Source: Azolla caroliniana (Eukaryota; Plantae; Polypodiophyta). Taken from it: 64,000 bases of DNA. The stretch is taken from NCBI GenBank assembly GCA_043228905.1, contig JBHGNT010000021.1, positions 3,534,001 through 3,598,000 of the forward strand, written 5' to 3'. The notes below the pieces were generated by a model. That model was not told the origin of the DNA and made no database searches. It saw only the letters and a list, made by a program, of their open reading frames with translations. The translations under genes and the position numbers were made by a program. Positions 15,043 to 56,526 of the stretch are shown here, piece by piece (within the stretch, counting starts at the first letter, position 1; each line of letters starts with the position of its first letter).

Positions 15043-15252
15043 GGTATCAGAGCGTGAGGGTTGAGAACCTCTGCAGCCGATACTTGCTTTTGTAGACGAA
15101 CCCTAGAACCCGGTAACAACAGACAAAGAAGCTCGATTGGAGCAACTACGCGTTGTCGTAGTGTATTTTGTACACTACGTGAAAAACGTATATAGTATTA
15201 GATTCAATAAAAAATGAAGAAATAGAAGAAAATAGCAAAAATAAATGGAACA

Positions 15253-15322
15253 TGCATAGGGCAAGATTCGAACCTTGCACCTCCATGTTAATAATGTAAT
15301 GTCTTACCATTACACTAGCATT
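15253..15322 (-). promoter_or_regulatory. tRNA-like Pol III A/B-box cassette in N1 LTR (second copy 18041-18110)
   Basis: Minus strand has TAGTGTAATGGTAAG (A box) and GCAAG-GTTCGAAT-CTTGC (B box in a T-arm-like stem). Confidence 0.6.
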
Positions 15323-15898
15323 TCATTAGTGTTAAAGCATAGATGTCCCACATAGAAAGGTAAATTCACGCTAGGATAAACATTAGAAAAACGCATAACA
15401 AAAGAAAAAGCTACACATACACATCTAGCGTGCATGATAAAAAACGCACAAGTTAGAAAAAAAGCATGATCACTTTAGATAAAGCATATAGTCTATCTAT
15501 AGGAAAAGCATGGGGTCTATAGTTAGAGAAAAAGCATGGATTACTAAGACTTCCTCATCACTACATAAGGATGGGGAGCACAATGTAATTATGTGTGAAA
15601 TACTTGGAAACTGGATATGTTTCTAAAAAACATCAATTAATAAACTATACTCGTGGGATTCACGAGGATTCTATATCATTCTCTTTCAACCCAAATTTAT
15701 ATTCTTATATTCATATTGATTAATCAAATACAATACACTCGTGGGATTCACGAGTTTGCTATAACTCTTTCTTACAACATATTTATATTCTTATTAGCCT
15801 TAAAACTCTCCTCTTCCTAGTCCAAAACCTCGGCGGTTCCCACCCGACTCACGCAACGATCCGGAGCCGAAAGGCACGACACAGTTGGTGAACCCGAC

Positions 15899-17941
15899 GT
15901 GAAGGCGGGTGGCAAGGAGATGGAGAATCAACAAGAGGCGATGAACATGATGATGATGATGTTCGAGATAATGCTACAAGAACAACGCGAGATGTCGGAG
16001 ATCACGACAGTAGTACAACGGCTCGTGCAACGGAACGGGCAATTTGATGGAAAGGATGTGTCACGCTATCTACGTGACTACAAGGCAGAGATGATACGAT
16101 GTGGGATACCGGAAGGATTGCAAGTGATATCCTTTAGTCGGGTGGCCTCGGACGAACTACAAGAGAGAATCCACAAGATACAACAACAAAACTCGACATG
16201 GGAGTCCTTTGAAGAAGCTTTACGGGAGGCATATGACTATGAGAGATGGACGGGACGAGATCGACGAGAATTCGACGAATGGGTGGCGTCGGAGAAGACT
16301 CACCGAAGTGCAACGCAAGCGTTCCTAGAGTTCGAGCATCGTTTTGCTCGACTCTCGGAGCGGGAACGAAGATTGGTGGGAGGAGATAAAGTCTTAATGT
16401 TCGTAAGATCGATCGATCGGAAAGAAAGGATAGACATTGGGATCGAACTCGAAGATGATGACGGTGCGAACGGCCTTACCGAGGATTGGGCTAAAGTCGA
16501 AAGGGTATGCCGAAGACATGATGAAAGGAAGCTGAGAATCTCGTCAACAACGACATGGCCCATGAAGGATGGTCGATTGAGGAAAAACGATGAAGCCAAT
16601 ATGAAGGCCGAAATACAACATGATGGTACCACGGGAGAAAGAGTGGAACAAGACACCCACTCGTCTTGTGAAAGAACGATGGCGAAGGATAAGGCCGATA
16701 ATTCAAGTGTAGAAGGAAATTTCGGGATACAAGTGCCCGAGACATCGGGTCAAAAAGGGGTAAGCATAATAGATGTTTGCATAATTGATGCAGATAAAGA
16801 GTGTGAAGCGGATGTGATTAAGGAGGTAGCCACAAAAGACGAAATCGAATCGGAGGTGGCTATGGACGAATCAATGGCGGATTGCCATATCGAGACTTCC
16901 CCACCACTGATTCCAGAGACTCCGGCGGTTGCGATCGAAAGGCAACGTGAGACCGAAGAGACGGAAGGTGGCGGAGAGAAAACGAATGTCGAAGCCGACG
17001 AATACGATGAAGAGATAGCCGAGAAGAATGCTAAGGGTGAAACTACGAAAGAAGGTAATACCGAGGATTCATGCCAACAATATCTAGAGACTTCGGCGGT
17101 TGTGTCCGAGAACCAACGTGAGACCGGAGAGACGGGAGATGGCGGCGAGGAAGGTAAAGTCGGAAGTCGGTTCGGATGGAAAATGATCCATCCGAAATTC
17201 CAATCTAAAAGAAAGTGCGACAATGCGGAGGTCGGGTCTACGACGGGAGAAGCGCGTAATACAGAGCACGCTCTACGGCGAATAAAGAAACGCGTGTTAT
17301 GGCGAATAAAGAAGCACGCGCTACGGCGAGAAAAGAAGCATGCATTACAACCACACGAGGACCGAACAACGAGCACATATCGGAGGACCTACGTAGCGAA
17401 CAACGGAAAGAAGTGCCGAAAGTCGAACCGGACAAGGCAGGTGAAAACGAAGAAAAGAAAGCAAATCCGGACGAAAAGAAAAGAAAAGAAACCGACCCGA
17501 AAGAGCACTGAATCGGTAAAAACCGATCAACCGAGTCCGGATCGACCGAATACAAATCGGAAAGGAAGCCGAACTAAACGAAAGACGATCCGACGAGACC
17601 GAATCGGAAGTAAGCTAATCCGACTAAACCGAAAATCCGAAAAGAAGTCGAGATTGATGAAGAAAAGAAAGAGGGCAAGAAAAGATACTACCGCGGATGA
17701 CAAGGATCAAGCGGGCCATGCAAAAAGCGAACGAAGACTATGGTGGATCGGATGTCGACAATGGTTCGGGTGGAAAGAATGGATGTGCTCCAAATGGAGA
17801 GACAAAGTCAACATAACAAGAGAAGTCGAGAGTACTACGAGCCGGCAACGAAACCAATCGGGTAGAGACCGGACGGAGGAGACTAACAAACACCAACAAC
17901 TTCGGCACATACCGGAGGATGTGCGGGTTTGGAGGGGGTGA
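15899..17941 (+). CDS. Gag capsid-like domain with acidic repeats, Lys/Arg tract and Trp-rich motif (first ATG at 15920)
   Basis: N-terminal ~200 aa align by eye with A2 Gag (GQFDGKDVSRYL, TWESFEEAL, VLMFVRSID, GLTEDWAKV). Frame is uninterrupted. Confidence 0.88.
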   Translation: MKAGGKEMENQQEAMNMMMMMFEIMLQEQREMSEITTVVQRLVQRNGQFDGKDVSRYLRDYKAEMIRCGIPEGLQVISFSRVASDELQERIHKIQQQNSTWESFEEALREAYDYERWTGRDRREFDEWVASEKTHRSATQAFLEFEHRFARLSERERRLVGGDKVLMFVRSIDRKERIDIGIELEDDDGANGLTEDWAKVERVCRRHDERKLRISSTTTWPMKDGRLRKNDEANMKAEIQHDGTTGERVEQDTHSSCERTMAKDKADNSSVEGNFGIQVPETSGQKGVSIIDVCIIDADKECEADVIKEVATKDEIESEVAMDESMADCHIETSPPLIPETPAVAIERQRETEETEGGGEKTNVEADEYDEEIAEKNAKGETTKEGNTEDSCQQYLETSAVVSENQRETGETGDGGEEGKVGSRFGWKMIHPKFQSKRKCDNAEVGSTTGEARNTEHALRRIKKRVLWRIKKHALRREKKHALQPHEDRTTSTYRRTYVANNGKKCRKSNRTRQVKTKKRKQIRTKRKEKKPTRKSTESVKTDQPSPDRPNTNRKGSRTKRKTIRRDRIGSKLIRLNRKSEKKSRLMKKRKRARKDTTADDKDQAGHAKSERRLWWIGCRQWFGWKEWMCSKWRDKVNITREVESTTSRQRNQSGRDRTEETNKHQQLRHIPEDVRVWRG

Positions 17942-18961
17942 GTGTCGTAGTGTATTTTGTACACTACGTGAAAAACGTATATAGTATTAGATTCAATAAA
18001 AAATGAAGAAATAGAAGAAAATAGCAAAATAAATGGAACATGCATAGGGCAAGATTCGAACCTTGCACCTCCATGTTAATAATGTAATGTCTTACCATTA
18101 CACTAGCATTTCATTAGTGTTAAAGCATAGATGTCCCACATAGAAAGGTAAATTCACGCTAGGATAAACATTAGAAAAACGCATAACAAAAGAAAAAGCT
18201 ACACATACACATCTAGCGTGCATGATAAAAAACGCACAAGTTAGAAAAAAAGCATGATCACTTTAGATAAAGCATATAGTCTATCTATAGGAAAAGCATG
18301 GGGTCTATAGTTAGAGAAAAAGCATGGATTACTAAGACTTCCTCATCACTACATAAGGATGGGGAGCACAATGTAATTATGTGTGAAATACTTGGAAACT
18401 GGATATGTTTCTAAAAAACATCAATTAATAAACTATACTCGTGGGATTCACGAGGATTCTATATCATTCTCTTTCAACCCAAATTTATATTCTTATATTC
18501 ATATTGATTAATCAAATACAATACACTCGTGGGATTCACGAGTTTGCTATAACTCTTTCTTACAACATATTTATATTCTTATTAGCCTTAAAACTCTCCT
18601 CTTCCTAGTCCAAAACCTCGGCGGTTCCCACCCGACTCACGCAACGATCCGGAGCCGAAAGGCACGACAGCGTCCTGGTCATACAAGATGCACAAGTACC
18701 GTATGGGGCATGGATATTTGAGCTTCGTGGAACGAAGGAACGAGGTAGCGCCGGAGGCGGCACACGAGGACTTTCCGGTATGGGAGCAAGGAGCGAGCCG
18801 AGTATTGTACTGCCTTGCGTCCTATGTGCATGACCTGATGCTCGGCTACATAAAGGATGCAAAAACGCCAAAGGACACCTGGGGAAATCTGAGGAAGATT
18901 TTCGCCGTGAGTACCACATCTCGTAAGTTGCAACTCCGACAAGAGCTAAACAACATCCGGT

Positions 18962-19575: not shown

Positions 19576-19684
19576 GATAATGCTAAAGTCAAGGCATGCA
19601 ATAATAGCCTAAGAGATTCCATGAAGAATGAGGAATTCGTTAAAGTGAGATAAAAACCCACAAAAAAATGCCGATGTACTACGT

Positions 19685-22600
19685 TGTCGTGAAGATTTTC
19701 GTCCATAGGCGGAAAACCGAGCGAAGTAAGCAAACCCGCGATGTGCAACGTTGCACATCAAGATGTTGTATTTCAATTTGTCGATAGTGATAAGTGTGGT
19801 GCTAGAAATGCACCTTAGGATTTGTAAAGTGTAAAGGTGATGTGCTTTTTCGCGCACATCCACGTGAGAGAGAGAGATAGGTACATAGTAGTTCGTGTAG
19901 AGGTGGGAGTTAAGACCCATCCTTCCCTCCTCCCCTAAAATCAAGGGAAATATCCCCATTGATTGAAAGGGGATATTTTGTAGCACCCTTTTTGAAAACG
20001 GTCTTCTCTCCTTGTGCTATAAAAGGAGAGGAAGAGCACCATTGTGGGGGTTGCCTTATTTTTGAGTGCGAAAGGTATACCACATAGGACGAGCGTTAGG
20101 ATTAGGGTTTCTTTTCTTCTTCGTCGTATTAGGGTTTCGGGTTTATCATAGTCGTTTGGTGCGGCCTACGCGGCCGCCATTTTGTAATCGGTTTTCGGTT
20201 CTAATATATCTTGTTGAGCATTTGGCCTCCATCTTCCTCTTGTTCATTCTTTCTCTTCTTGTGCTAAGCTCCATTCCGAAGTCCTATCCCTTCTCCCCTT
20301 CTCCTTAGTCCAAGACCCCCATGGTTCCGCCCTTCTCCACGCACTTGCGAAATATCTCGACATCTTTGGTGAACCCGACGTGAAGGGCGGCAAGGGAGAA
20401 AGAGATGGAAGAAGGCTTCGACTTCGAGGAGATGATGACAAAGATCTTGATGGACGTCGGACGGAAGAGGGCGAGGCGAGAGGCGGCTCAACAAGCGGTC
20501 GAAAGGGTGGTCCGTCTAGTCGGCCGGTTCGATGGGAAGGAGGTCCCAAAAATTTTGAGGGCCTACGATGCGGAAATGACGGGGATGGGCGTGGACGAAG
20601 CGACGAGGCTAGAGTTCTTTCGTCGAGCGGCGGCCTCATCAAAGTACGAGGAGGTCAAGGAGCTCCAAGAAGCTCACGAATCATGGGAGTCCTTTGAAGG
20701 GGCTCTAATGGAGGCATACGGGTGCGCGGAATCGGAGGTAAGAGGTCGGCGAGAGTTCGATCGGTGGGTGGCGTCGGCGAGGCGCCATCGGAGCGCAATG
20801 GAGGCATTCCGAGAGTTCGAGCGTCGTTTCTCTCAACTCTCGGAGTGGGAACGAAGATCGGTGGGGGCGGACAAAGTCCTCCTATTTTTGAAGACGGCCA
20901 TCATGAGGAGAGGATGGACATCATGTTCGAGCTTCAAGACGATTATGGGGCGCATGGTCTCACCGAGGAGTGGCCCGAAGTGGAATGGGTGTGTCGGCAA
21001 CATGAGGCGAGGCGGTCGGCCACAACACGGCCCGCGAGCGGGGGAGAAGAGAGAGCGACGACCGACTACACCATGCCGCCGGACGAGAGCTCATCGCGAA
21101 CCGGTTTGGAGGGGCCCGACCTACAAGCGCTAATACGGGAGGCGTGCGGGCTCGTAATGGCGAAAATCGAAGCCGAAGAATGGCTTATTGCGGGATCGGG
21201 CCCGAGCGGATCGGAGGACGCGGAGGAAGGAGCTTCCTCACACGTGGAGGACGGGGCCTATGCGGAGGCCGAAAGAGAATGGTACATCGGTACCACGGGA
21301 GAGGGTGCGGAGCGAGCCGCCCTCTCGACATGGGGGAAAAGAACGACCGAGGACGAGGTCGGGGACGGTGAGGCGGCGATCGCCGATTCGAGCGGACATG
21401 GCGGATTCGGGACATGGTGGCCCGAATCATCGAGTACGGAGGAGACAAGCGGCGGTACCGCAACCTTCCACGCACCGGTTCAAGAGACCACGGCGGCCGG
21501 CCCGAGTGCCCGCGTAAGACCTATGGTGAAAGGCGGTGGCGGTGGCAAGGCGGGCGACCACGGCGTCGACACGAGAGAAGGTGCGGAGCAAGCGACCGTC
21601 TCATCTCGGGGAAAAAGAACGGCCATGGACGAGGCCGATATCTACGGAGCGATGGACGCCACTTCGAGAGTGGGCGGAAGTCTCGGGACGCGGTTGCCCG
21701 AAACGTTCTACGAGGTTTTCGCGAGCATACTCGAGGCTTGCGAAATGGAGGAGGAAGACGAAACGAGCGATGGTGTCGCGACCTTCCACACACCGGCCCT
21801 AGAGGCTTCGGCGGTCGGCCCGAGTGCCGGCACGAGACCTAGAGCTACGGACGGTGGCGACGGCAAGGCGGACAACCGAGATGACGCGGAGAACGGCGAA
21901 GAAGAGGTGGTGGCAAGCATACTAGAGGCTTACGGAATCGGAGATGGGGGAGCCGCGGACAACGACGTCCGAACGAAAGCGGCTACGGAGACAACAAGTG
22001 GCGGTGCCGGGTCCTTACCCACACCAATCCTAGAGGCTCCAATGGCCGGCCCGAGTGCCGGCATGAGGCTTAGCGCGACGGGAGGTGACGGCGGCAAGGC
22101 GGGCAACGAAAACGAGAAGGAAGATTGGAGCGGACGGAGGCAAGACCCCTTGACACCGGGGCCGGAGACTTCGGCGGTTGTGCTCGAATGCCAACGTGAG
22201 ACCGGAGAGATGGGCGGTGACCGTGAGGAGGTGAGGCCCGGAGAGAGCGCATACGAAGACGAGTATGCGGGGCCCGGAATGGGCGTATACGGTGGGTCCG
22301 ACGGAGAGGACCGGAGCGGAAACGAGGAGAGAGTCGGGAACCGACCCGACCGGAATACGGCACGGAAGAAGAAGAGAGTAAGGGCCGGCGAACCGGGCCC
22401 AAACCGAAGGAAGCCGGCGAGACCGATTGGCCGGTTACGGTTACGGTTACGGTTACGGTGGGAGCCGGTAAGCGCGAGATGGAGGCTAACCGGGCACGAC
22501 GACCATGGTTCGGGGGAAAAACGGAAACAAACGAGACCCTCCATACCCACTCTAGAGACTACGGTGGTTGCGGATCAACATAAGACCGGAGAAATGGCGG

Positions 22601-24605
22601 GTGGCGGCGAGGAGTCGGAGGCCGGAGCGTACGAGGTTACCAGAACGGATATCCGGTACGATATGGTGGACGGGTGGGTCCAAGACGGCGAGCCCGTGTC
22701 GGAACGGGCTACGGCGACAAAGGAGGAGAAGACCGACACGGAGGTCGGGTCTACGGCGGAAGAGCGAGACGAGATGCATGCAATACGGCCGATGGAGGGC
22801 CAAGACACAAGCATGCCTACGAAGGAGCCACATCGAGCGACCGAAGATGACGGTCGGATCACGCCTTCGAGAGGCGAATACGAGGAGGAAGGCGGCGACG
22901 ACAAGACCTGGCACGATGCTAGGGAAGATTGGTGGGAAGAGGTGGCCTACGGAGAGGCTAAGACCGGCGGCCACGAAGATAAGGCCCGAGAGGGATCCTC
23001 CACACCGGCTATAGAGACTCCGGCGGTCGGCGCGAGTGCCGACGTGAGACCAAGAGTGGCGGACGGTGGCGGCGAGGGGACGAAGGCCACAACGGATGAA
23101 GGCACCGAGAGAGGCATACGGGAGGTCGCGGAGAACGAAGATGTATGCGCCCAAAAGAACGAACACGACATCACGAAGGATGTGTGCGGTCGAGCGGGCC
23201 AAGAGGGCCAAGAGGGTGTTCCTCCGAGCGAAACGGAGGTCGGGGAAGAAAGGTACCTTTCCGAAAGGGTACGCGAAGAGGAGCGGAATGCGAAACGTGC
23301 AATGCGGCCGCATGAGGGCCAAGCAACGAGCACGGGAACGATGGTATGCTCTACGGTGAGAGAGCACGGCAAGCAAAGGGAAGGCGAAAAATGCGTGATG
23401 GGGTCATCGAAGGACCGAAGCACGAGCACGCATTCGGAGGACGACACCGACGTACGGGGAAAGCCTACGGAAGGCAAGCGCAGAGCGAGAAGAGTCGGCA
23501 CGACGAGGTGTGCGGCACGAAAAAGGCGGATCCGGAGGATATGCGAGGCGGACAAAGGGTCGGCAACGGCGTTCGGGAGGACCGATCGGGGAAGAAAGCG
23601 CGGGCATCGGAAACGGCGGTCCGGATGTAGACAGTGGTTCGAGGAAACACGGTGGACGTGGCGGATCGGGTGGAGGCAACGACTCGGCGAACGTCGTCAA
23701 GTGTGGCGGATCGGATGGAGCCGACGGTTCGAGACCATTCGGCGGAGATGGTGGGCCGGAAGGCGACGGTGGTTCGTGTGGACGGGGTGGACTTGCTCGA
23801 AGTGGAAGACTAAGCCGGGCAAGCCCACGAGGTTGTCAAGGGCTCGGTTGGCCGCCTTGGCCGAAAATCTCGCGTTTTGTTCCCCTTTTGGCACATACCG
23901 GTGGATGTGCGGTTAGGTGGGGGCGGATGTCGTGAAGATTTTCGTCCATAGGCGGAAAACCGAGCGAAGTAAGCAAACCCGCGATGTGCAACGTTGCACA
24001 TCAAGATGTTGTATTTCTATTTGTCGATAGTGATAAGTGTGGTGCTAGAAATGCACCTTAGGATTTGTAAAGTGTAAAGGTGATGTGCTTTTTCGCGCAC
24101 ATCCACGTGAGAGAGAGAGATAGGTACATAGTAGTTCGTGTAGAGGTGGGAGTTAAGACCCATCCTTCCCTCCTCCCCTAAAATCAAGGGAAATATCCCC
24201 ATTGATTGAAAGGGGATATTTTGTAGCACCCTTTTTGAAAACGGTCTTCTCTCCTTGTGCTATAAAAGGAGAGGAAGAGCACCATTGTGGGGGTTGCCTT
24301 ATTTTTGAGTGCGAAAGGTATACCACATAGGACGAGCGTTAGGATTAGGGTGTCTTTTCTTCTTCGTCGGATTAGGGTTTCGGGTTTATCATAGTCGTTT
24401 GGTGCGGCCTACGCGGCCGCCATTTTGTAATCGGTTTTCGGTTCTAATATATCTTGTTGAGCATTTGGCCTCCATCTTCCTCTTGTTCATTCTTTCTCTT
24501 CTTGTGCTAAGCTCCATTCCGAAGTCCTATTCCTTCTCCCCTTCTCCTTAGTCCAAGACCCCCGTGGTTCCGCCCTTCTCCACGCACTTGCGAAATATCT
24601 CGACA
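19685..24605 (+). mobile_element. Gag-only non-autonomous LTR retrotransposon N2
   Basis: 678-bp LTRs at 19685-20362 and 23928-24605 (about 5 substitutions seen), TSD ACGT, Trp PBS 20367-20384, PPT 23915-23927, no pol. Confidence 0.95.
20405..23916 (+). CDS. Gag-like protein with long acidic repeat tail and Trp/Arg repeats (~1170 aa); one frameshift near 20895
   Basis: ORF 20405..21133 (GRFDGKEV...VLLFLKT) continues in ORF 20722..23916 (HHEERMDIMFELQDDYGAHGLTEEW). Homologous to the N1 and N3 proteins. Confidence 0.82.
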
Positions 24606-24609
24606 ACGT

Positions 24610-24687
24610 GGTGCCCAAAAGTTGTTGATGGGTGGGGGGTGGAGCCAAGAAGAGCTCCACCTCCTTCCCAAGGGGTTGAGCGTGAGG

Positions 24688-24739
<52 letters not shown>

Positions 24740-25246: not shown

Positions 25247-25249
25247 TGT

Positions 25250-28200: not shown

Positions 28201-29156
28201 GTATCAAGGATGAATCTAATCAACTATTGGGATCACGTAAGGGGTTGTCATGGGGATACATTGCAGAAGGTCCAGGAAAAAGTATAGAATTTTGGCGACG
28301 GTTTATGTCACTGCCACTACAAGATTAGGTGAACATACTCCATGGAATCAGGGGTGGATGGACTATGAGATCGGAAATCATTAACGCTCTACTGATTAAG
28401 GAATCTACTACTCGAAGGACGACAATGGAGAAATGGATTGTTACGGGCATGACCATATAATATCCCGTGGTGAGAATTGTCGTAGTATTCTATACACGTG
28501 GATAAGTGTGAGGGTTAAACAAAGAGTCTAAAGAAGGGGAGGATTACTTTTAATCCTCGGGATTGAGACAACCCATGAGGCCAAGTGTGAACATGGCTGG
28601 GGGCCTTGAGAATTACTATAAATAAGAGGCCTAGCTACCCTCATTGGGGCATGCATTGACTACGTCGAGACTCTGTCCGTAAGTGGAACGACTCTTGTAG
28701 CAAGCGCGCTATCATCCAGGTACGACTCGACGCCAAGGCGGTGGTATGGGACGCCGATCGAGGCTCGAGTCCGTCTCGATCCCTTCGCTCGGGGGTGGTC
28801 GGGTGGATCGGCACCCTTCTTTCTCTCTTTTCTCTCTATTCTTTCTAGATCTATCATTGATATATCCTTATTTTATGCTTACTTTAGTACCTAATCTCTA
28901 ATATTTGGTATCAGAGCATATGTACTAACGTTTCTTTTGGTTTTCTTTTTGTCTTCGCGTGGGATGGCGATTGATCGTTGTGCGGTCGCCTTCATGCATA
29001 CAAGGATTAGCAAAAGAACTTCGGTAAATTTTCCTTAATTTTTTATCTAATTTTTCTTCTCCCTTCTATACATGTGTATACTTAATATGTAGTTTTTTTT
29101 TCATATATTCAATGATGTTGACGTGGTATTTAATTGGTTATCTTAAACGTTTACAT

Positions 29157-29416
29157 ATGTCCACGAGGTCAATACCTCGTTTGACATATAAATCATATGT
29201 GATGAGTGTCGTATGCGTACGAGGTTACTACCTCAATTGCGTATTACGTTCACGAACATATGTTACGTTCGCGTACGAGGTCAATACCTCGATTCGTTCG
29301 AAATGATATGCGTTGGATTTACTATGCGTAAGAGGTCAATACCTCAATTGCGAATTACGCTTAACCTTATTTTCGGATGTTTCGTGTGCGTAGAGGTATA
29401 TGCCTCGATTACGTAT
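29157..29416 (+). repeat. Five regularly spaced hairpin repeats in the chromovirus 5' leader
   Basis: GAGG-N6-CCTC at 29165, 29221, 29277, 29332 and 29393. Confidence 0.85.
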
Positions 29417-30513
29417 CCCGAATACATCATTGTTGGCTATATAAAAAAAACGATTCATTTAGTATACGCATATGTGGTCACTTATATACGTCTCTGATCG
29501 TATATATGTGATAAATGGACATATGTGTATATTTTAGATTACGTGATTCATATCAAACGTTTTCCTACTTGGGGAGAGGATTTTGGTGGCCGTCCTCACA
29601 TTTTTGTGAGAATGGCGTTGTCACCATCCCTTTTATCAACAATTTTTATTGTTGAAATTCCCGTTGGTCACTTTGATATTTCGTTACGTAACGAACCTCG
29701 TATAGCCAAAATGACGTTGAATACGTCGGGCTTGATCCACATCAAGTAGGGTCGCTCTAATGACACACGTATCCAACATCTCCCCTCGTTACATGGATAC
29801 GATGCCACCATGAGCTCGTTCTTACGAGTGGCATTCGTAATGACGTGACCATGTGATGGGCCACATGAGCCTACGAAGACACAAGGGCTCATTCGGCTTG
29901 ACCATTAGGTTACACTTTGGCATATGCCATCGTAATTACGAGGCTTGAGGTTAGGTAGCGTACAACCATAGTGGGTAATAAATGAGGGAGAAATAAGGCC
30001 ACTTGACCTATATGTTTCTTTTAAACAAAAAACATATAGGGGCAAATGCCTCGCATATCTCGAATACGCCTCAAACATTAAACATTCAAGACGCGCAATC
30101 TACTTGGTTGGCTCAAGTGTTTAATGTATTTGTCCTCGAGGTCTCGAGTTCAAATATGACCAACACCATACAACATCGTTGATACATATGACTATAATAC
30201 ATGTTTAGACTTTAGGTCTAAGTGCACTTCGGGGTCCTCGTAATAGGACTTAAAGAGCCGAAACCACATATGTGGGCACAGAAACATAGTTATTGTTAAC
30301 ATTTTTTTCGTGTATAAACTATTCATGACGTGAACATACATGGTTGAGCCTCGGGGAGCCGCCATGAAAAAAATCGATATAGAGATCAGGGAAAGGCATT
30401 CATTTGTCACCCCCATGGTTTTTAAAACACCTCTGTGTTACCATAGTAACCTGATCTTGAACCTCATCTCATACGTCTAGAGGGGTATTGACGTGAGATC
30501 ATGATATCGATTA

Positions 30514-33500: not shown

Positions 33501-35037
33501 AAGTCGCATCCGTGAAGTTAACATGCTTAGCTTCACTGAAATAACATCAGATCTTTATGATCACCTTCGAGGAAAGTATCCTGATGACAATTATTTTGCA
33601 AAATACTGGGCAAGAGTCGAGTCTGGAACAGACACCACCACACCCTCGAAGGAATACTTCCACATTGCTAACGGTCTGCTCTACCGTAATGGGAAGGTTT
33701 GTGTTCCAGATTTGCCTGAGGTCAAAAAGAGAATTCTTTTTGAATGCCATGATGCACCCTCAGCAGGGCACCCTGGAATACATCGTACACTCGTTCTCAT
33801 CTCCACTCAATTTTATTGGCCTAAGATGCGTCCTGACATACATAGCTATGTGACTAAATGTCACCAATGTCAGGTTAACAAAGCCGAGCGACTTAAAGCC
33901 GCAGGACTTTTACATCCCTTGGACATTCCCAATAATAAGTGGGAAAGTATATCCATGGATTTTATTGTTAGCCTTCCTCGCACCCAAAAAGGTCATGATG
34001 CCATATGGGTTGTGGTTGACAGACTAACTAAAATGGCCAGATTTATTGCTACTAAAACCACGGTAACAGCTCCTGAATTGGCTTACCAATTCGTTGATGA
34101 GTTATTTCGTTTTTACGGGTTACCGATGGATATCGTGAGTGACCGAGATCCAAAGTTTACTAGTGACTTCTGGACGCAAGTCTTTAAGAAGTTAGAAACT
34201 ACGTTGAGCATGAGCTCCACGGATCATCCTCAATCCGATGGACAGACAGAACGAGTAAATCAAATTATTGAGGACATGCTTCGAGCATACGTTGGTGCAA
34301 AACCAACAAAATGGGAACGTTACCTCCCAATTTTGGAGTTTGCTTATAACAGCTCCAAGCATACGTCGACGGGATATAGTCCTTTTATGTTGATGTATGG
34401 ATTTCAGCCACGAGCCCCGATTGATGTTAATATACATCATGATGAGTTGCGAAGTACACAAAACTTTCTTCGGGATATGCAAGATATGTTGCATATTGCA
34501 CGGGATAATATAAAAACAGCTCAAGATAGAGCCCGTTTTTATGCCGATCATCACAGGCAACCTCGTGTATTCAGCCCTGGACAGAAGGTATTTTTACGTG
34601 TACCTCACAATTCTAAGACATTGTCTACGGGCAAGTGCGCTAAGTTAGCCCCACGGTTTTGTGGACCTTTTACAGTCCTCAAACGCATTGGATCATCAGC
34701 CTATCGTCTCGCTCTTCCCGATGGTGTTGGAATCCATCCAGTCTTTCATGTAAGTCGTCTAAAAGAACTTCTAGGTTCTGGTGACAATACAGTTACAACT
34801 GAAACTCTGGTTACTTCTGAAGATTTATCTTCTAAACCACATGTACCAGAAAGAATTCTCGATGTTAAAACAAAAAAATTACGTGCTAAGGAAATCCGAG
34901 AATTTAAAATAAAATGGATGGATAAATCAATCAAAGATGCCACATGGGAACGCGAAACGACTCTAAGAACTAACTTCCCTAACTTTCCATTGCAAGAGTG
35001 CAATGTTTTAAAGAGGGGGAGTATGTTACGGGCATGA
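30514..35037 (+). CDS. Gag-PR-RT-RH-IN-chromodomain polyprotein, 1507 aa
   Basis: [18 protein letters not shown], protease LFDSGS, RT MPFGL...FLDD, RNase H TDAS, integrase HHCC/DDE, GPF, chromodomain PERILD...IKW...ATWE. Confidence 0.97.
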
Positions 35038-42595: not shown

Positions 42596-43030
42596 TTCTT
42601 TCTTTCTTTCTTTCTTTCTTTTTCTTTTTTCCAAAAAAAAAACTCCTTCCATTAGTTATAAAATTTTACAAATGAGACGATTATGTACAAATCCCTAAAG
42701 GGACGCGATAGTTCCATCTTATGTGGATGCCCACTGACTCAAGAAAGGGAGAGGACGACCATTGTTGGATGAAGGCTATACGTTGTCTTTCAACTCCCTT
42801 GGAGCCGCCCTTAAGGCCATCATATTGGCTCTTCAGAGTGGCTACAATTTCACTCCATATCTCTTGTAGTAACCTTGTTGGATGAGCGGTTTGGTTGGAG
42901 AAGACTCGCCTACATCGTTGTTTCCATAGAATCCAAAGGGTTATTGGGTTGACCAATTCCAACACCTCTTGAGATTTGTCATTAAGAGGAATAGAGTGGA
43001 CATTGCCACTGGAGGAGAAAAGGACCTCCT
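42596..43030 (-). mobile_element. Short 3' fragment of the same L1 family as 36230-36646
   Basis: ORF 42681..42965 is nearly identical to the end of 36206..36577, with the same 3' UTR and an A/GAAA tail. Confidence 0.9.
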
Positions 43031-49416: not shown

Positions 49417-52400
49417 GTTGTTACACCTTCCAAATGGTAAAAGTCCTTGTTGGGACAATATAACAAGTGAAGTCTGTTACCCGTTCCCTTGGGTGAACAC
49501 CTTTGATAGATCTGCGGCTATCGGTATTCAAGGGCGTGGTACGTGAAGGCTCGTAACAGAGGCGTCGAGGGAGAGACAGTGCTCAGAGAGAAAACACTAA
49601 CGAGATCTTGACAGGCGTGGGCGGCGCTCAAATCATACGTATGAATCAAAGCACAGACACATGGAGCAAATTGGGCACAATTCAGATATATTACTACGAC
49701 AGAAGAGATTACAGAACACGGCCTACGGTCGGTGACCTTACAAGATTAGCTAGTTACGAGGGACTCAACTAGTGCTTCCGCCTATATTTTCTTCTCCCCC
49801 CCACTCTGAGGTACTGGTCTGTGTTTAAATAACTTTTCCCCTAATACACAACCGAGCCGTCGGTGGCCCGTGATACTCGGACTCGGCGTTTGCTAATTTC
49901 CTAATTTTACATTTCTATCCTCTGGACAACACCTGGCACGCCCGTGGGACAGGACCTTGTCCGTCGGACCCACGACTTACAAAATACTAACAATATTACA
50001 AAAATTGCCTTTTAGGCGTGATCCTCGTTTCATTCCTCTTTTAAGATGTCGAGGATGTTTTCGGGGTCCGGGGTGGTGGCATGGTGGTCTGGTTGGACTA
50101 TCGGTGCGGGGGGTTGAGTTTGGTCCGGGGGTATCATATCTTCTCGGGCGTCCGCCTCCGGTGCCGCCGATTCTTTTGGTGGGGGTGTGGGTTCGAGGGC
50201 GTTGACCTCTACTTCGACTGGATCTGGTACCGTGTGGGCGTCCATGGGATGTCTGTTGGCCGGGGCAAGTTCCTCTTGTGCCATGTTCGTGATCTCCTTG
50301 CTAGAAGGTTCTTCCTTCTGCTCTGTGGCCGTTGGAGGGCTGGTTGGGATGGCTGCGAGTCGTTCTCGTTCGAAGGCTTCTGCTTCCAGGCGAAACAACA
50401 TTTGACCGTCATTGAAGTCCTCCATTATTTGCTCGATTGCCGCGGTGTGAGATTTTCCCAAGGACTGGTAATCCTCGGTTAAATCTGCACGCAGGTTTTG
50501 TATGCTGGCTTCGTCCATTTTGTAGAAGCCGCGGCCCTCCTTCCGTCGGTTCTCGGCGTCGGCGCGTAAAATATGCAACTCGGTAGCTTGGGCTGCCCAT
50601 TCGTCTCTTGCGCGACTTAATGTTTCCTCGACCTTTTTGGTCAGGTGCTGGCGCTGTTTCTCGATCAGTATTTTGATGCGTGTCTCATCCATGCCGGGTT
50701 GTGCTCGGATGGCCGCTAAGTCCTGTTTTAAGCCGTCGACCTTGGCCTGAAGCTTCTGTGCTCGTAGTTCATAGATGGCTTGAGTGTTCTTTGCATCCGC
50801 GGTTACAAGCTGGATAGCCTGCTCGTAACGCTTGGTGAGTTCTTCGGTGGCTTGCTCTCGTTCTTTTTGACACGCGGCCCGGACTTGTACCCGTTCGACG
50901 ATTCTCTCCTCTTGTAGGGCGAAGTAGGAATCTGATAATTTGTCTTTTTGCTCCGAAAGTAGCTTGCATTTGATGAAAAACTCGTCAGCCATTTCTTTAA
51001 GGGTCGTACGCTGACTCTGCAGCTCGGCATTCTCCGCGATCATTCTCTCCTCCCGTCGATGGTTCCAATCTTTCGCATTGTCGAGCACGGCCTGTAGGTC
51101 TAGGACCTCCTTCTCTTTCTTTGCCACTGTGGTTGCGTATTCCTCCAGCTTGCTTTTGAGTTCGGCTTCTTTGCCCGCGGCTTGCGCTTGTACCCGGCCC
51201 AGTGCTTCGTTCTGCTCATGTATCCTTTGGTCGGCCTGGGCTCTCATCTCGGCCATCTGCTTGGAAGCTTCTTCTTTTAGGCGAGCCATCGCCTCTTGAT
51301 GCCGTTGTTCATGTCTCTCGGTTCGCCGTTGTTCTTCTTTAAGCTCCGCACGGTAATCCCGGAGCGGGGGTTCTGTCTGGGTTGCCACCTCCTTGGGTGC
51401 ACGAGGGGGTGGTATCTCGGTCTTCTCCATGGGCGTGGGCGCCTCGGTTGTTGTGCAGGCATCGACCATTTGTAACGAGTCCGTTTGTGTACTGGCCTGC
51501 ATCGTCAGGATTGAGTCGGTGATGGTGCTTTCATCCATCATTGTTATGCGTGGAGGCGCTGGGAGGGCCTCGGTGGTCATGACCGGAAGGCTCAAGAGTT
51601 GTTGTTCCGGCCGGTTTTGCTCCCAGGCTGCCAGCTTCTGGTTCGTAGCGTGCCATAATTCTGTAGCCATCTTAGCCTGTTTTTGGGCTATTTTTATCTT
51701 TCGGGCCATGTCTTTGGCTGCCCGCGTAGTGCGATTCAGGTCCCGATATGCCTCGATAAGGGCCGTGTTCAACTCGGGGACCTCCATGAGGAGAGCGACA
51801 TGTTTTGCCTGCTTCTTTCTCCCGATTTTTTGTAAAGCCCTATCCTCCTAGGGCTCAATTTCACCTATTAGCGCGCGTTGAATCATTTTTGTTTCGGCGT
51901 GCTCCTCCGCCATTTGAGCAGCTGCCGCGACTTGGGCTCTGGCGAGGAAGTCGACCAGCTCGAATGTCGTACCGAGGTGTAGGAGCGTACTAAATTCGTA
52001 AGCCTCCGCGGGGAGGTCCTTATACCCGAGGACTTCATCCTCCGAGATCTGCGTTGTCTGCCCATGCTCGATCTTTCCCTGGTTCAGCGATGCCTCCTTA
52101 GGGATGATGGCCAGGTTGCTCTGTCTGACAACTAAGGCTTGCTCCTGTTGTGGCTCTTTCTGTTCTTCCGAGGACTCGCGGTTGAGTCATCTTCTCTTGC
52201 TTGGCTATGTTTGGGGTTCCGGGGTCGGTAGTGTCGTTTCCTCCACCTACTTCCTTTTCTGGGGTCATGGTGGTGCAGCCTGCTGTGTGTTGGGGCGTGG
52301 GCTAGGCCCTCAGGAAGTTATCGAGGGGCGTGACGTTGGTTGTCGAATGGTGACGTCATCGGCCGTGTTGTCTTCCGCGGCTACCTCCTCCTCCCATTCT

Positions 52401-53107
52401 TGGTAGGTCTCGGAAACTGCCCTTTTTTGTTGGGGTTGGGTGGGTGGTGGTGGAGATGCGGGGTTTTGGTCGGCGGCAGGAGGTGGAGGCGATGTGGGCT
52501 CCTCCCATGCTTCGTGGCTGATGGCAATGAATTTCTCTTTCTGCCTTCGTGGTGGTGGTGGGGACGTGAGTGTGCGAGGGGAAGGAAGAGAAGAGGGTGG
52601 GTATAGAACCATCAAAAAGTGGGTAAGAACAGACAACATCTTCTTACCGGATTGAAATGAAGCTAAGGCGGCGCGGAGTCCTTCGCCTGTGATGATTCCC
52701 CAATCGATTCTATTTCCTTCATACGCGTTGTCGCGAAGATGCGCGTGCGAGCGTGCTTCGCTTGAGCGGGACCACCGGGGTCTTGGACCAAGGAGGATGT
52801 CCGTCAAGGTATTGAGAAGAGGACGATGTGAATGTAAGATTGGAGGAAGACCTATTACACTTGAGAAGATTGAAGATTGTACACTTTCAGAAGTAGATAA
52901 ATAATTACAAGATAGATGCGAAGAAGAAGAAATAGAAGCTTATATTATTGATGGTGATGATGATGGTCATATCATATTGACACAGTTTTGCTTTGTGACA
53001 TGCAAGAAACCATGGGCTTAAAACCGTGGTTTTGTGTACACGGTTTTGTTCGTTTGTTTCCTACGGAATACTGAATATGAGAAAGAAATATAGAACATCT
53101 AAAGCAC

Positions 53108-53180
53108 TTAGTAGTAGCTTTAGTGGTAAGGTAATTGCCTCTTACCTTAGGGGTGCAAGGTTCAAATCCTACTTGCAACC
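53108..53180 (+). promoter_or_regulatory. tRNA-like Pol III A/B-box cassette in N3 LTR (second copy 56030-56102)
   Basis: TAGCTTTAGTGGTAAG (A box) and GGTGCAAGGTTCAAATCC (B box), antisense to the element. Confidence 0.6.
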
Positions 53181-53261
53181 CTCTACATGCACTCAATGCC
53201 ATTGTGACCTAGGTTTATTTATTTTCATTTTTACAAGTATTCGTGAAATGTGTGTGGATCC

Positions 53262-55610
53262 TCAATTTTTGAGTTTTTCTCGCACTAGACATGCCACATC
53301 ACGACATCCACCCCCACCAAACTGCACATCCTCCGGTATGTGCCAAGAAGAAAAGAGTGATGTGGAAGGGTCAAAGGTGGTTGGTGTTTGATTTCCTCCT
53401 TTCTTGTGCCTCGTCCGCACCGTCTTTTTGTCGTCTACTTCGAACTGCCGTTGCCATCCGATCCACCATATCATTCGCTTACCTTTTTTATTGCCATGTC
53501 TAGTTGTCATGGCTCCCTGTGCTCCTCCCAAGCATAACGCTTCATGCCTCGTGCATGTGCCACCTTCATCTCGGCCATCTCCTTGGTCACTTAACTTTCC
53601 TTTATCATCCTTTCTCGTCTCATGCTTGCCTTTCCTTATGCTCAACAGCCTCGATTGGATGTCGCAGCTCGTTTGCTTTGACCTCTGTCTAGGCCGGCTC
53701 AACTTCTGTCGGGATCGGTCTCGACCAATCAACTTCTGGCTTGGTCGGCCTTCGTTCGGATTCGCATTCGGCCGAATCGGACTTAGATGATTGACTTTCG
53801 TCCGGGTTAGTTTCCGTCCGGTTTTCAGTTGGGTCGGGCCTAGTTGATCAACTCTCGTCCGGGTCGGCTTCCATTCGGGTCGGAATACCAACTGAGTCAT
53901 CTTCCATCCGGATTGTATTCCGGTTCTTCCTTTCTTGCCGCTCTTTGGCTCTTCATCGAACTCTATTGTAGCTTTGTTTTTGGCCTCCTTGTTGGCAACC
54001 GTTCCTCTGTATGCGCCGGCTTCGACCCTCATCTCCTCGCTACCACCTTCCATCTCTCCGGTCTGATGTTGGCTCTCGGGCACAACTGCCGAAGTCTTCG
54101 GAACCTGTGTGGAGGGATCCCTTCGTCTGTGGTCATCGTCCTCATTGCCACTTTGGTCCTTCGATTTCTTGCCGTCACCTTCCGCCTCTCCGGTCTCACG
54201 TTGACACTCGGGCACAACTGCCGAAGTCTCAGGAAGAAATGTGGGGAGAACCTCGACACCATCGGTCACCGTCTTCTCATCCATAGCCATCTTTCGCTCA
54301 ATGTTGTTATTCGCATTGTCTTCAATATTTTCTTCCCCACCACTTTTCGTCTCTTGGGTCTCATGTTGGCTCTCGGACGCAACTGCCCAAGTCTCTAGAT
54401 CAAGTGTTGGGAAAGTCTCGACACGGTCATCCGTCGTGAACTCTTCCTTAGCCATCTGCGACTTGATGTCGTTTCTCGTGGCTACCGCCTCAATCACGTC
54501 GACCTCGCACTCTTTACATCCCTTGATCACGCAAGCTTCCCTCATGCTTGCACCTTCATTACTCGATATTTCGGACACATCACGTGTTCTGAAATGCTCA
54601 TCCACTCTTAAAGCAGCATTTCCCGCTCTCGAGTCTTCGGCCCTTCTCTCGACCATCGTTCCTCCATAAGTCGAGAAGGTGGCTTGTTTCACACCTTCTC
54701 CCATGGTACTGTCATACCAAACCTGGGCCTTCGTATTGGCTGCACCATTAGTCTGCATTTGTCGGGAGGTCTCCTCTTCGTCGATCACCATTTTCCTCGG
54801 TTTTGTTTTCAGCTTCTCTTGAACCTCGACTTGTGCCTTTAAGTTCATTATTGCCTCTCTCATCAAGGCTTCTATGTTGAGTTCTTTCGAAGCTTCCCTC
54901 TTCGAGCTTTCTTCCTTCAGTGGGTTTTTATTGCCACATCCCATTCTCCTTTGAACATCCCTTGTGGGTCGTGTTGTTGTCGATGAGAGTCTCATCTCCT
55001 TCTTATCGTGTTGTCGGCATACCCTTTCCACTTTGGCCCAATCCTCAGTGAGGCCATTTTCACCATTGTCATCCTCGAGTTGGATTCCAATGGTCTTCCT
55101 TTCATTCCGATCGATTGACTTTACAAACATCAGAACTTTATTCACCCCCACCAATCTTCGATCCCGGTCCGAGAGTTGAGCGAAGCGATACTCAAACTCA
55201 ACGAATGCATGCATAGCACTCTGGTGGGTCTTTCTCGATGACACCCATTCGTGAAACTCATATAGACCTCGTTCCTTTTGCTCTTCGTAACCATATGACT
55301 CTCGTAAAGCTTCTTTGAAGGACACCCACGAATCGTGAGTTTTTTGAATCTCTTTAATCTCTTCGAAGATTGGTTCGGCCACCACTCGACAAAAGTACTC
55401 CAGCCTCATTGCTTCCTCCACTCCTCTTGAATCCATTTCGGCATTGTAGGCCTTTAGAAATTTTTGGACTTTGCCTCCATCGAAAAACCCGACTCGCTTG
55501 ATCATGCTTTCGACGGCTTGTTGGGCCGCACGTCGTGTTTTCCCTTCTCTTGAAAACTCCATCATCATCTTTGACATTGCCTTCATTAGATATTCCTCGT
55601 CCAGCTTCAT
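53262..55610 (-). CDS. Gag capsid-like domain with acidic repeats, basic tract and Trp motif, 782 aa
   Basis: VGFFDGGKV, SWVSFKEAL, VLMFVKSID, GLTEDWAKVERVC; intact and reads through the PPT into the LTR. Confidence 0.88.
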   Translation of the reverse strand: MKLDEEYLMKAMSKMMMEFSREGKTRRAAQQAVESMIKRVGFFDGGKVQKFLKAYNAEMDSRGVEEAMRLEYFCRVVAEPIFEEIKEIQKTHDSWVSFKEALRESYGYEEQKERGLYEFHEWVSSRKTHQSAMHAFVEFEYRFAQLSDRDRRLVGVNKVLMFVKSIDRNERKTIGIQLEDDNGENGLTEDWAKVERVCRQHDKKEMRLSSTTTRPTRDVQRRMGCGNKNPLKEESSKREASKELNIEALMREAIMNLKAQVEVQEKLKTKPRKMVIDEEETSRQMQTNGAANTKAQVWYDSTMGEGVKQATFSTYGGTMVERRAEDSRAGNAALRVDEHFRTRDVSEISSNEGASMREACVIKGCKECEVDVIEAVATRNDIKSQMAKEEFTTDDRVETFPTLDLETWAVASESQHETQETKSGGEENIEDNANNNIERKMAMDEKTVTDGVEVLPTFLPETSAVVPECQRETGEAEGDGKKSKDQSGNEDDDHRRRDPSTQVPKTSAVVPESQHQTGEMEGGSEEMRVEAGAYRGTVANKEAKNKATIEFDEEPKSGKKGRTGIQSGWKMTQLVFRPEWKPTRTRVDQLGPTQLKTGRKLTRTKVNHLSPIRPNANPNEGRPSQKLIGRDRSRQKLSRPRQRSKQTSCDIQSRLLSIRKGKHETRKDDKGKLSDQGDGRDEGGTCTRHEALCLGGAQGAMTTRHGNKKGKRMIWWIGWQRQFEVDDKKTVRTRHKKGGNQTPTTFDPSTSLFSSWHIPEDVQFGGGGCRDVACLVREKLKN

Positions 55611-56526
55611 CCTCCCCTACCGCTCTTCACGTCGGGTTCACCAAAAAAAATGTCACGAAGATGCGCGTGCGAGCGTGCTTCGCTTGAGCGGGACCACCGG
55701 GGTCTTGGACCAAGGAGGATGTCCGTCAAGGTATTGAGAAGAGGACGATGTGAATGTAAGATTGGAGGAAGACCTATTACACTTGAGAAGATTGAAGATT
55801 GTACACTTTCAGAAGTAGATAAATAATTACAAGATAGATGCGAAGAAGAAGAAATAGAAGCTTATATTATTGATGGTGATGATGATGGTCATATCATATT
55901 GACACAGTTTTGCTTTGTGACATGCAAGAAACCATGGGCTTAAAACCGTGGTTTTGTGTACACGGTTTTGTTCGTTTGTTTCCTACGGAATACTGAATAT
56001 GAGAAAGAAATATAGAACATCTAAAGCACTTAGTAGTAGCTTTAGTGGTAAGGTAATTGCCTCTTACCTTAGGGGTGCAAGGTTCAAATCCTACTTGCAA
56101 CCCTCTACATACACTCAATGCCATTGTGACCTAGGTTTATTTATTTTCATTTTTACAAGTATTCGTGAAATGTGTGTGGATCCTCAATTTTTGAGTTTTT
56201 CTCGCACTAGACATGCCACATCACGACAGCGCTGATGATGATGGTTGCCTTGTTCTGCGGCATGCTCGTTGGGTTCGTATGCACGAACGCATACTCCATT
56301 AATATACGAGCAATCTCCCCGAAAGCTATGTTGGGACCGCCATACGTGCGATGTGCTTTCCCTGAGGCTGAGTACTCCCCGAAGTACGCTTTCATCTTCG
56401 ATGCCAAGGGTAGGTCGACCTCATGGTCCCCTCCCCGTTGCAGGTCCAAAACAGCCCGAAGCACGTTGTTGGTGATGGCTTCGGGACTTATACGTTTAGC
56501 CACACCTTGGGCATCTGGGTGCGCGG

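What the first reader, a model, noticed from the sequence alone, without database searches (positions are those of the whole stretch)
15154..56228. Three young Gag-only satellite retrotransposons with a shared, unrecognised protein architecture
Seen: N1 (15154-18669), N2 (19685-24605) and N3 (52729-56228) have near-identical LTR pairs, the same Trp PBS, PPT region and target type as A1-A3, and no pol. One ORF fills the space from PBS to PPT. It keeps the ~200-aa capsid-like domain, but the CCHC knuckle, PR and pol are replaced by a 450-950 aa tail of acidic repeats, a Lys/Arg tract and a Trp motif. The three LTRs differ strongly from each other, yet the ORFs stay open (one frameshift, in N2). 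Known: Gag-only elements (TR-GAG type) exist in plants. Inference: a long-lived helper/satellite system whose modified Gag is under selection, for example co-assembling into helper particles, packaging its own RNA through the basic tract, or acting as a dominant-negative on the helper.
Basis: partly seen in the sequence, partly recalled or inferred. Interest (0 to 1): 0.82.

Follow-up and report, generated by a model that had tools for sequence, protein, structure and literature searches.

The report
Capsid-only parasites of plant retrotransposons
These are three young copies of an old, abundant family of plant jumping genes that have no copying enzymes and keep only a conserved capsid protein joined to a long tail; the tail's letters drift freely but its reading frame stays open through a tryptophan-rich end motif, so the family likely hitchhikes inside the particles of full-size relatives, a life style already described in wheat, here with an undescribed tail.

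Summary
Observation confirmed. N1, N2 and N3 are recently inserted, pol-less LTR elements whose PBS and 4-bp NCGN target sites match the Phygy lineage of Ty3/Gypsy. Their one ORF has an Arc/Ty3-type capsid fold under purifying selection (dN/dS 0.16-0.23 in four same-type comparisons). The 470-970-aa tail drifts neutrally (pooled dN/dS 1.03) yet stays in frame: 20 of 22 homologous blocks and 18 of 18 internal duplications keep phase, and relatives tolerate compensated frameshifts. 70 of 80 long family proteins run through a C-terminal Trp motif. The capsid C-lobes of 19 of 22 tail-bearing proteins form one clade, so these are not independent deletions. N1's N-lobe groups with a helper-type Gag, and some relatives keep only one capsid lobe. 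Corrections: the tail sequence is not under amino-acid selection, the basic tract is not universal, and none of A1-A3 is shown to be autonomous. Wheat RLG_Quinta (Gag plus unknown domain, Gag swaps) and TR-GAG are precedents, so this is a new variant of a known kind. Expression and co-assembly are untested. The scan's index showed no earlier look-alike of this protein.

The parts
15154..15881 (+). N1 5' LTR (TG..CA; U5 hairpin motif at about 15820)
15885..15902 (+). N1 primer binding site (Trp type, isotype recalled), inside a U5-leader stem shared with the A elements
15920..16525 (+). N1 capsid domain: N-lobe about aa 37-107 (groups with helper-type Gag P0004/P0005/P0037), C-lobe about aa 111-206 (satellite clade)
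16526..17941 (+). N1 tail, 471 aa: acidic repeats, basic tract, Trp motif starting at 17741; stop immediately before the 3' LTR
17943..18669 (+). N1 3' LTR; target duplication GCGT on both sides
19685..20362 (+). N2 5' LTR; terminal 30 nt match A1 at 26/30 at each end
20405..23916 (+). N2 ORF: capsid broken by one frameshift near 20,890 (relative P0209 reads through there), then a 967-aa tail with repeated Trp units at 23659, 23704 and 23749
23928..24605 (+). N2 3' LTR; target duplication ACGT
55651..56228 (-). N3 5' LTR
53262..55610 (-). N3 ORF, 782 aa: capsid, the helix that precedes the knuckle in helpers, 576-aa tail, Trp motif at 53468; runs 45 nt into the 3' LTR
52729..53306 (-). N3 3' LTR; target duplication GCGT/GCGC (one mismatch)
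2829..8418 (-). A2, Phygy-type relative with open RT-RNase H-integrase ORF but lacking knuckle, DUF4100 and protease (about 1.5 kb missing against A3); target duplication ACGT
56527..59912 (+). A3, broken Phygy-type copy with CCHC knuckle, DUF4100 and protease; stop in gag, pol cut off
1..1471 (-). A1, 5' LTR and start of gag of a Phygy-type element, cut by the window edge

Best explanation
N1-N3 belong to an old family of pol-less Phygy-type LTR retrotransposons that keep a conserved capsid joined to a sequence-neutral but frame-locked tail ending in a Trp/Arg motif, and they likely replicate by docking this protein into the particles of enzyme-coding relatives, where the tail would act as a tether and the end motif is predicted to grip the element's own RNA in place of the lost zinc knuckle. 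Shown: structure, youth, capsid fold, purifying selection on the capsid, neutral drift with frame conservation in the tail, motif retention, cis signals shared with Phygy-type elements, discordant trees of the two capsid lobes. Inferred: cross-mobilisation (no pol, so enzymes must come in trans); co-packaging with helper RNA (simplest route to N1's helper-like N-lobe is template switching in a shared particle); the tail lying inside the shell (established knowledge: in Ty3/Arc-type Gag the part after the C-lobe faces inward where the nucleocapsid sits). Speculative: RNA as the motif's ligand. Keeping the RNA translated almost to its 3' end likely also protects it from nonsense-mediated decay. 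My odds: about 0.85 for 'satellite with a functional capsid', about 0.5 for the whole statement.
For: Capsid: AlphaFold model confident over aa 1-210 and low over most of the rest; top structural matches dArc1 Z 9.5 (rmsd 7.7, 159 aligned), Arc Z 9.4, Arc N-lobe Z 8.8 (rmsd 1.9, 69 aligned), also PNMA2, Copia and Ty3 capsids; Atlas neighbours are Retrotrans_gag clusters, score 0.94. dN/dS: C-lobe 0.21 (N1/N3), 0.18 (N1/L001), 0.16 (N1/L002); N-lobe 0.23 (N1/L001); N3/N2 capsid 0.48; control A1/A2 0.14. Tail: pooled 1.03 (0.85-1.26) over 855 codon pairs, differences 189/212/190 by codon position; neutral simulation expects 6-11 stops per lineage, 1 of 3000 runs had none; 20 of 22 block diagonals among the three window tails in phase, both exceptions in the 3' block past the motif; 18 of 18 internal repeat offsets are multiples of 3; LTR control 4 of 19. 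P0011, P0204, P0214 and P0216 read a tail stretch in another frame (67% over 24 aa to N1's +1 frame for P0011) and the three full-length ones return to the motif's frame. Motif in 70 of 80 long family proteins; 26 different C-termini 6-72 residues after it, 11 of them shared by 2-13 proteins; the 10 proteins without it all end at different lengths. Trees: 19 of 22 tail-bearing C-lobes form one clade (100/99); N1-type N-lobes group with helper-type P0004/P0005/P0037 (98/99); AU test rejects joining N1-type with other satellite N-lobes (p 0.025) and joining N1-type C-lobes with those helpers (p 0.0055). U5-leader fold shared by 4 N-type and 3 A sequences: 10 of 24 pairs with changes on both sides, 0 of 500 shuffles as high. 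N2's LTR ends match A1 at 26/30 and 26/30.
Against: No expression or protein evidence was obtained. The motif's DNA is also well conserved (94% between N1 and L004/L005), and synonymous and non-synonymous changes there do not separate protein from RNA constraint (N1/L002 motif region dN/dS 0.76, 0.29-2.47). The motif varies: the WWIGW core is replaced in the P0008 family and in P0205/P0210/P0255/P0256, and N1 has Cys for the third Trp. The basic tract is absent from the P0008 family. Common tail variants in run X2 were 15 synonymous of 40 shown (12 more hidden), not significantly above 0.27 expected (p 0.10). The N1/N3 N-lobe comparison gave 0.74 (0.37-1.31), read here as two different origins. 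Trees rest on 78-90 columns under LG+G4 with long-branch warnings; one clade for all 22 tail-bearing C-lobes is not rejected (p 0.14). The covarying stem is a pyrimidine tract against a purine tract in 7 related sequences; slid controls reach up to 6 double-changed pairs. Database members may be the same family re-assembled from different samples, not independent copies.
Confidence: 0.5

Rival explanations
1. The capsid works as a Gag donor, but the tail protein has no function: the frame is kept open only so that the RNA is translated nearly to its end and escapes nonsense-mediated decay or translation-linked silencing, and the Trp motif is an RNA signal or a passenger.
For: Tail dN/dS 1.03; compensated frameshifts tolerated; ORFs end at or just inside the 3' LTR; plant Copia elements are proposed to shorten Gag mRNA 3' UTRs to avoid NMD (PMC5580714, passages); motif DNA highly conserved.
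Against: Stops cluster 10-17 residues after the first Trp in 4 multi-member classes and no multi-member class stops upstream of the motif. TGG codons are one transition from a stop, yet are kept and in some families multiplied (12-13 Trp in the last 130 aa of N2, P0012, P0211, P0213). If filler were all, deleting it (as in short TR-GAG elements) would be simpler.
Confidence: 0.25
2. The N protein is mainly a dominant-negative that poisons or caps helper particle assembly, like Ty1 p22/p18, limiting the helper while the satellite RNA is still packaged.
For: 13 database proteins have a C-lobe without an N-lobe, arising at least twice on the tree; Ty1 p18 is a capsid C-terminal fragment that blocks assembly (PMC8458377, abstract); a 450-950-aa appendage could distort a shell.
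Against: The family appears abundant and young and depends on the helper; most proteins keep both lobes, with dN/dS near the helper-type value; N-lobe-only forms also exist.
Confidence: 0.12
3. The Trp/basic end motif anchors the protein to a membrane, or acts as a GW-type Argonaute hook that dampens silencing, and does not bind RNA.
For: Trp- and Arg-rich segment with moderate amphipathicity (hydrophobic moment 0.33-0.41 at 100 degrees in 3 of 12 proteins); 1-4 GW/WG pairs in the last 130 aa of 12 of 14 proteins, in a disordered context. Both motif types are recalled, not tested.
Against: No GW/WG in P0008 or P0210; amphipathic period differs between families; no hydrophobic transmembrane run (mean hydrophobicity near or below zero); in an assembled shell the tail would face inward.
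Confidence: 0.1
4. The three elements are unrelated recent deletion products whose ORFs are open by chance or by recent descent.
For: Purine-rich, T-poor plus strands favour long ORFs (T 13-18%); internally deleted copies such as A2 occur in this lineage.
Against: 0 of 6000 shuffles open; one C-lobe clade with a long stem; homologous tails absent from the A elements except the last 27-48 nt; purifying selection between satellites.
Confidence: 0.03

Closest known systems
RLG_Quinta, non-autonomous partner of RLG_Cereba in wheat and oat (PMC11302176; passages and section 5 read)
   Same: Gypsy-derived; one ORF with GAG plus a domain of unknown function; no RT or INT; PBS and LTR termini shared with the helper; long-lived lineage; divergent GAG variants exchanged by recombination; proposed to contribute GAG to shared particles.
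   Different: Quinta derives from a centromeric (CRM) element, these from Phygy. Here LTR bodies are not alignable to the window's A elements, only ends and the U5 motif. The passages read report no neutral-but-frame-locked tail, Trp motif, capture of a helper capsid lobe or single-lobe forms. I could not compare DUF1 with this tail (no sequence at hand).
TR-GAG elements (PMC4350172; 12 passages read; also PMC13570524, 9 passages)
   Same: LTRs, PBS, PPT, TSD, one GAG ORF, no RT, multiple copies; N1 and N3 are under 4 kb.
   Different: TR-GAG1 keeps its zinc knuckle and has a 433-aa ORF and 5-bp TSD; here the knuckle is replaced by a 470-970-aa tail, the TSD is 4 bp NCGN, N2 is 4.9 kb, and the GAG is missed by Pfam.
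Phygy clade of Ty3/Gypsy non-chromoviruses (PMC6317226; 10 passages and one supplementary table row)
   Same: 4-bp NCGN target duplication and tRNA-Trp PBS; no chromodomain found in A2's integrase.
   Different: Phygy elements listed there are 7.7-10 kb with a full polyprotein; no non-autonomous Gag-tail partner is mentioned in what I read.
Ty1 p22/p18 and Drt2 capsid C-terminal restriction factors (PMC8458377, abstract and outline; structures)
   Same: Capsid-lobe-only proteins of the same fold.
   Different: Those are made by the autonomous element or the host to restrict transposition; here single-lobe forms carry the long tail and seem to belong to a mobile dependent family (DNA context not verified).

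Membership tests
TR-GAG / semi-autonomous Gag-only LTR elements | LTRs, PBS, PPT and target duplication | tested here: met
   (TSD is 4 bp, not the 5 bp described for Coffea)
TR-GAG / semi-autonomous Gag-only LTR elements | single ORF with a GAG capsid domain and no RT/INT | tested here: met
   fold; Atlas; no pol match in the N interiors (tblastn of A2 pol); Pfam misses the capsid
TR-GAG / semi-autonomous Gag-only LTR elements | length under 4 kb (1-6 kb in the paper's HMM screen) | tested here: met
   3.5, 4.9 and 3.5 kb; N2 meets only the wider range
TR-GAG / semi-autonomous Gag-only LTR elements | multiple conserved copies per genome | tested here: inconclusive
   no genome held; exact-match contigs have depth 5,400-8,600 in X1 and 1,200-1,400 in X2 against 9-63 for most diverged-relative contigs, suggestive of many copies but not a copy count
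TR-GAG / semi-autonomous Gag-only LTR elements | transcribed | not testable with these tools
   only contigs, no raw RNA reads were offered
Autonomous/non-autonomous pair (criteria in PMC11302176) | identical PBS | tested here: met
   identical in N1-N3, A1, A2; one mismatch in A3
Autonomous/non-autonomous pair (criteria in PMC11302176) | matching LTR termini | tested here: inconclusive
   N2/A1 26 of 30 at both ends; N1 and N3 against A1-A3 only 15-17 (5') and 5-16 (3') of 30, ungapped, so their partners are probably other families
Autonomous/non-autonomous pair (criteria in PMC11302176) | conserved 3' half of the LTR | tested here: not met
   only 28-72 nt of U5 align between N2/N3 and A LTRs, none for N1 by blastn; tested against the window's A1-A3 only
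Autonomous/non-autonomous pair (criteria in PMC11302176) | an intact autonomous partner in the same genome | not testable with these tools
   no genome held; A1-A3 are cut or defective; intact Gag-protease proteins P0004, P0005, P0037 exist in the database
Phygy lineage | 4-bp NCGN target duplication | tested here: met
   GCGT, ACGT, GCGT/GCGC for N; ACGT for A2; 5' flanks ACGG and GCGG for A1, A3
Phygy lineage | tRNA-Trp primer binding site | tested here: inconclusive
   sequence conserved; isotype from recall, no tRNA gene found to verify
Phygy lineage | RT/RH/INT phylogeny with REXdb Phygy references | not testable with these tools
   no reference sequences at hand; N elements have no pol
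Ty1 p22-type restriction factor | inhibits transposition of the cognate element | not testable with these tools
   needs an assay

The most novel reading that the evidence does not exclude
A modular capsid-adaptor parasite: one tail, whose only requirements are an open frame and a terminal Trp/Arg motif, is plugged onto interchangeable capsids or single capsid lobes captured from different helper families, letting the satellite retarget itself from helper to helper and package its own RNA without a zinc knuckle.
Probability: 0.3. Interest if true: 0.75.

Novelty: new variant of a known kind. Interest (0 to 1): 0.52.

Why it matters
Gag-only plant elements are common, but what their Gag and extra domains do is open (the Quinta paper says it has no hint for DUF1). 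This family splits the question into testable parts: a capsid under selection, a spacer selected only for frame, and a short end motif. Natural variants already supply the controls (single-lobe forms, compensated frameshifts, a swapped lobe). If the motif is a knuckle-free packaging device or the lobes retarget the satellite between helpers, it shows how dependent elements compete for shared particles. The family is also invisible to Pfam-based annotation while apparently abundant.

Tried and rejected
Whole-genome copy census and genome-wide dN/dS: no genome held and the genome index gave no answer, so distribution across species is unknown. Expression: no RNA holder listed; contigs of two guessed-RNA runs gave only low-depth diverged pieces; neither is evidence. 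Complex prediction of N1 capsid with P0005 capsid: no verdict (score 0.17). Idea that the tail repeats are copies of the U5 signal: a matrix from six U5 motifs gave p 0.02, 0.41 and 0.14 for the three tails with near-zero scores; rejected. Tail derived from helper gag/pol in another frame or strand: nothing beyond the last 27-48 nt. Tail fused to Pol in longer proteins: 0 of 5322 candidates of 1694-4835 aa, weak evidence, and 880-1690 aa was covered only. Tail look-alikes: none usable in the Atlas; the 150 listed of 469 representative hits were capsid matches or unnamed fragments matching the tail. Viral contigs: 0 of 3 candidates. Single-sequence fold of N2's last 118 aa: low confidence (mean pLDDT 51), not searched. 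Weak Pfam hits for 3 of 11 N-type proteins (E 0.02-0.04, below cut-offs) were set aside. Trees lost a few rows to de-duplication; one search repeats them with a fixed set of 36 and 32 rows. LTR-end tables had two off-by-one windows, corrected. Literature: 10 searches found no description of a Phygy Gag-tail satellite; the library lacks most subscription papers, and supplements of PMC11302176 and PMC4350172 were not read and may bear on novelty.
Full report
Observation. A self-comparison of the window found the three LTR pairs at the stated places, 99.86, 99.26 and 99.65% identical: one indel, five substitutions and two substitutions. Ends are TG..CA and target duplications are 4 bp, GCGT, ACGT and GCGT/GCGC. 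The same PBS follows the 5' LTR of N1-N3 and A1-A3, and a 40-nt block before the 3' LTR is shared by N1-N3 and A2. NCGN targets and a Trp PBS are the marks of the Phygy clade in Neumann et al. (PMC6317226; passages; supplementary row: 4 bp NCGN 100%, tRNA-Trp 81%). The Trp label itself is recalled. The host is an unnamed plant; no genome was held.

The ORFs are real features. N1 encodes 673 aa and N3 782 aa; N2 is split by one frameshift near 20,890, which its relative P0209 (97% over aa 1-164) does not have. In 2000 dinucleotide shuffles per tail none was stop-free in any frame. Pfam sees nothing in the four N ORFs, but a model built on a 27-sequence alignment is confident over aa 1-210 and matches retrotransposon-derived capsids: dArc1 Z 9.5, Arc 9.4, Arc N-lobe 8.8 at rmsd 1.9, with PNMA2, Copia, PEG10 and Ty3 below; Foldseek ranked the same family first though with no E-value under 0.001. 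Most of the rest is low-confidence, except a short helix around aa 451-470. N3-type proteins keep the helix that precedes the CCHC knuckle in helper Gag, and the tail starts where the knuckle would be.

It is a family, not three accidents. Protein searches returned 12 and 22 clusters, expanded by member look-ups, all unnamed metagenome predictions. In a tree of 36 C-lobes, 19 of the 22 tail-bearing ones, including N1, N3 and N2's relative, form one clade (100/99) apart from all helper-type Gags; the other three (P0201, P0207, P0210) carry a different whole capsid on the same tail. Synonymous distances between families are 0.7-0.9, about a hundred times the LTR-pair differences. Contigs identical to N1 have depths of thousands where most contigs of diverged relatives have tens, which suggests many near-identical copies but is not a count.

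Selection splits the ORF. Capsid dN/dS is 0.16-0.23 in four same-type comparisons, 0.48 for N3/N2 and 0.14 for the A1/A2 control (Nei-Gojobori counting with a transition weight, bootstrap intervals). In DNA-defined ungapped tail blocks it is 1.03 (0.85-1.26), with differences spread evenly over codon positions (blocks within and between elements are pooled and are not fully independent). Protein-guided whole-tail values were 0.71-0.83. Yet frame is kept: 20 of 22 block diagonals among the window's tails and 18 of 18 internal duplications are in phase, against 4 of 19 in LTRs. Three metagenome loci (L002-L004) show out-of-phase blocks; some reflect broken copies, and part of L002's is a shared frame change. 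P0011, P0204, P0214 and P0216 read a tail stretch in another frame, and the three full-length ones come back to the frame of the end motif. So the middle of the tail needs to be translated but not to have a particular sequence.

The end motif. 70 of 80 family proteins of 420 aa or more (three window ORFs included; helper-type proteins removed by pattern, four more by hand) carry the Trp motif or a variant. Their C-termini fall at 26 different places 6-72 residues after it, 11 shared by several proteins, while the 10 without it all differ in length. The basic tract is strong in N1 but missing in the P0008 family. Whether the motif is constrained as protein or as RNA could not be settled: its DNA is also conserved.

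Exchange with helpers. N1's N-lobe groups with intact helper-type Gag-protease proteins P0004, P0005 and P0037 (98/99) while its C-lobe sits in the satellite clade; both alternative groupings are rejected (AU p 0.025 and 0.0055; the idea was noted, before the trees; short alignments, simple model). Four proteins have only an N-lobe and 13 only a C-lobe before the tail; their DNA context was not available, but a run X2 contig of depth 739 leaves N1 at 16,240, the lobe boundary. N2's LTR ends match A1 at 26 of 30 on both sides, N1's and N3's do not. A U5-leader stem enclosing the PBS is shared by satellites and A elements, with 10 of 24 pairs changed on both sides. None of A1-A3 is a proven helper: A2 lacks knuckle, DUF4100 and protease, A1 is cut off, A3 is broken.

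Mechanism. Without pol, the elements must borrow enzymes (inference from structure). A capsid conserved on satellite-only branches and a lobe apparently captured from a helper point to shared particles. I commit to a tether model: the capsid docks, the neutral spacer gives reach, and the Trp/Arg end likely holds the element's own RNA where the knuckle was lost (0.5). The main rival is that the tail is translated filler that shields the RNA from nonsense-mediated decay, in line with the argument for plant Copia Gag mRNAs in PMC5580714 (12 passages read) (0.25). Dominant-negative action like Ty1 p18 (PMC8458377, abstract only) and a membrane or Argonaute role are less likely. Two papers on translation-linked silencing were seen as search listings only and are not relied on.

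Comparison and verdict. Wheat RLG_Quinta encodes GAG plus an unknown domain, shares PBS and LTR ends with RLG_Cereba and has swapped GAG variants (PMC11302176); TR-GAG elements are widespread (PMC4350172; PMC13570524). The life style is therefore known. New here, as far as ten searches of an open-access library show, are the Phygy origin, the neutral yet frame-locked tail with its Trp end, and lobe-level capsid exchange. The scan's own index held no look-alike of the protein, and the word and place look-ups listed other systems (8 of 49 shown for this genome). New variant of a known kind; interest 0.52.

Noticed in passing
window 2829-8418 (-), A2: Young Phygy-type copy (LTRs 99.1%) with an open RT-RNase H-integrase ORF but about 1.5 kb missing over knuckle, DUF4100 and protease: the mirror image of the N elements. 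Whether this deletion form is itself a propagating family is unknown.
   Followed up: partly
window 59340-59350 (+), A3: Gag-protease ends at a GGATTTT heptamer followed by a stop, and several database helper Gags also end in or near 'DF'; looks like a -1 frameshift site between protease and RT (motif type recalled).
   Followed up: no
window about 12330-13095 (+): LTR-like stretch with the same U5 motif (13032) and a CGACA end but no PBS after it; probably a solo LTR of another Phygy family.
   Followed up: partly
window 28439-35489 (+): Intact chromovirus with identical 466-bp LTRs, 1510-aa polyprotein with chromodomain and a Met-type PBS; ordinary and very young.
   Followed up: no
window 50030-51847 (-): 605-aa Glu/Ala/Gln-rich, probably coiled-coil ORF with no Pfam hit, just beyond N3's insertion site.
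   Followed up: no
window 36230-36646 and 42616-43028: 417-bp inverted repeat at 92.6% identity, 6 kb apart; possible DNA transposon ends.
   Followed up: no
window 14743-15050: Short tandem repeats just left of N1 to which very many contigs map in runs X1 and X2; part of another abundant element into which N1 inserted.
   Followed up: no
window 8367-11754 (-): Decayed Copia-type pol fragments next to A2.
   Followed up: no
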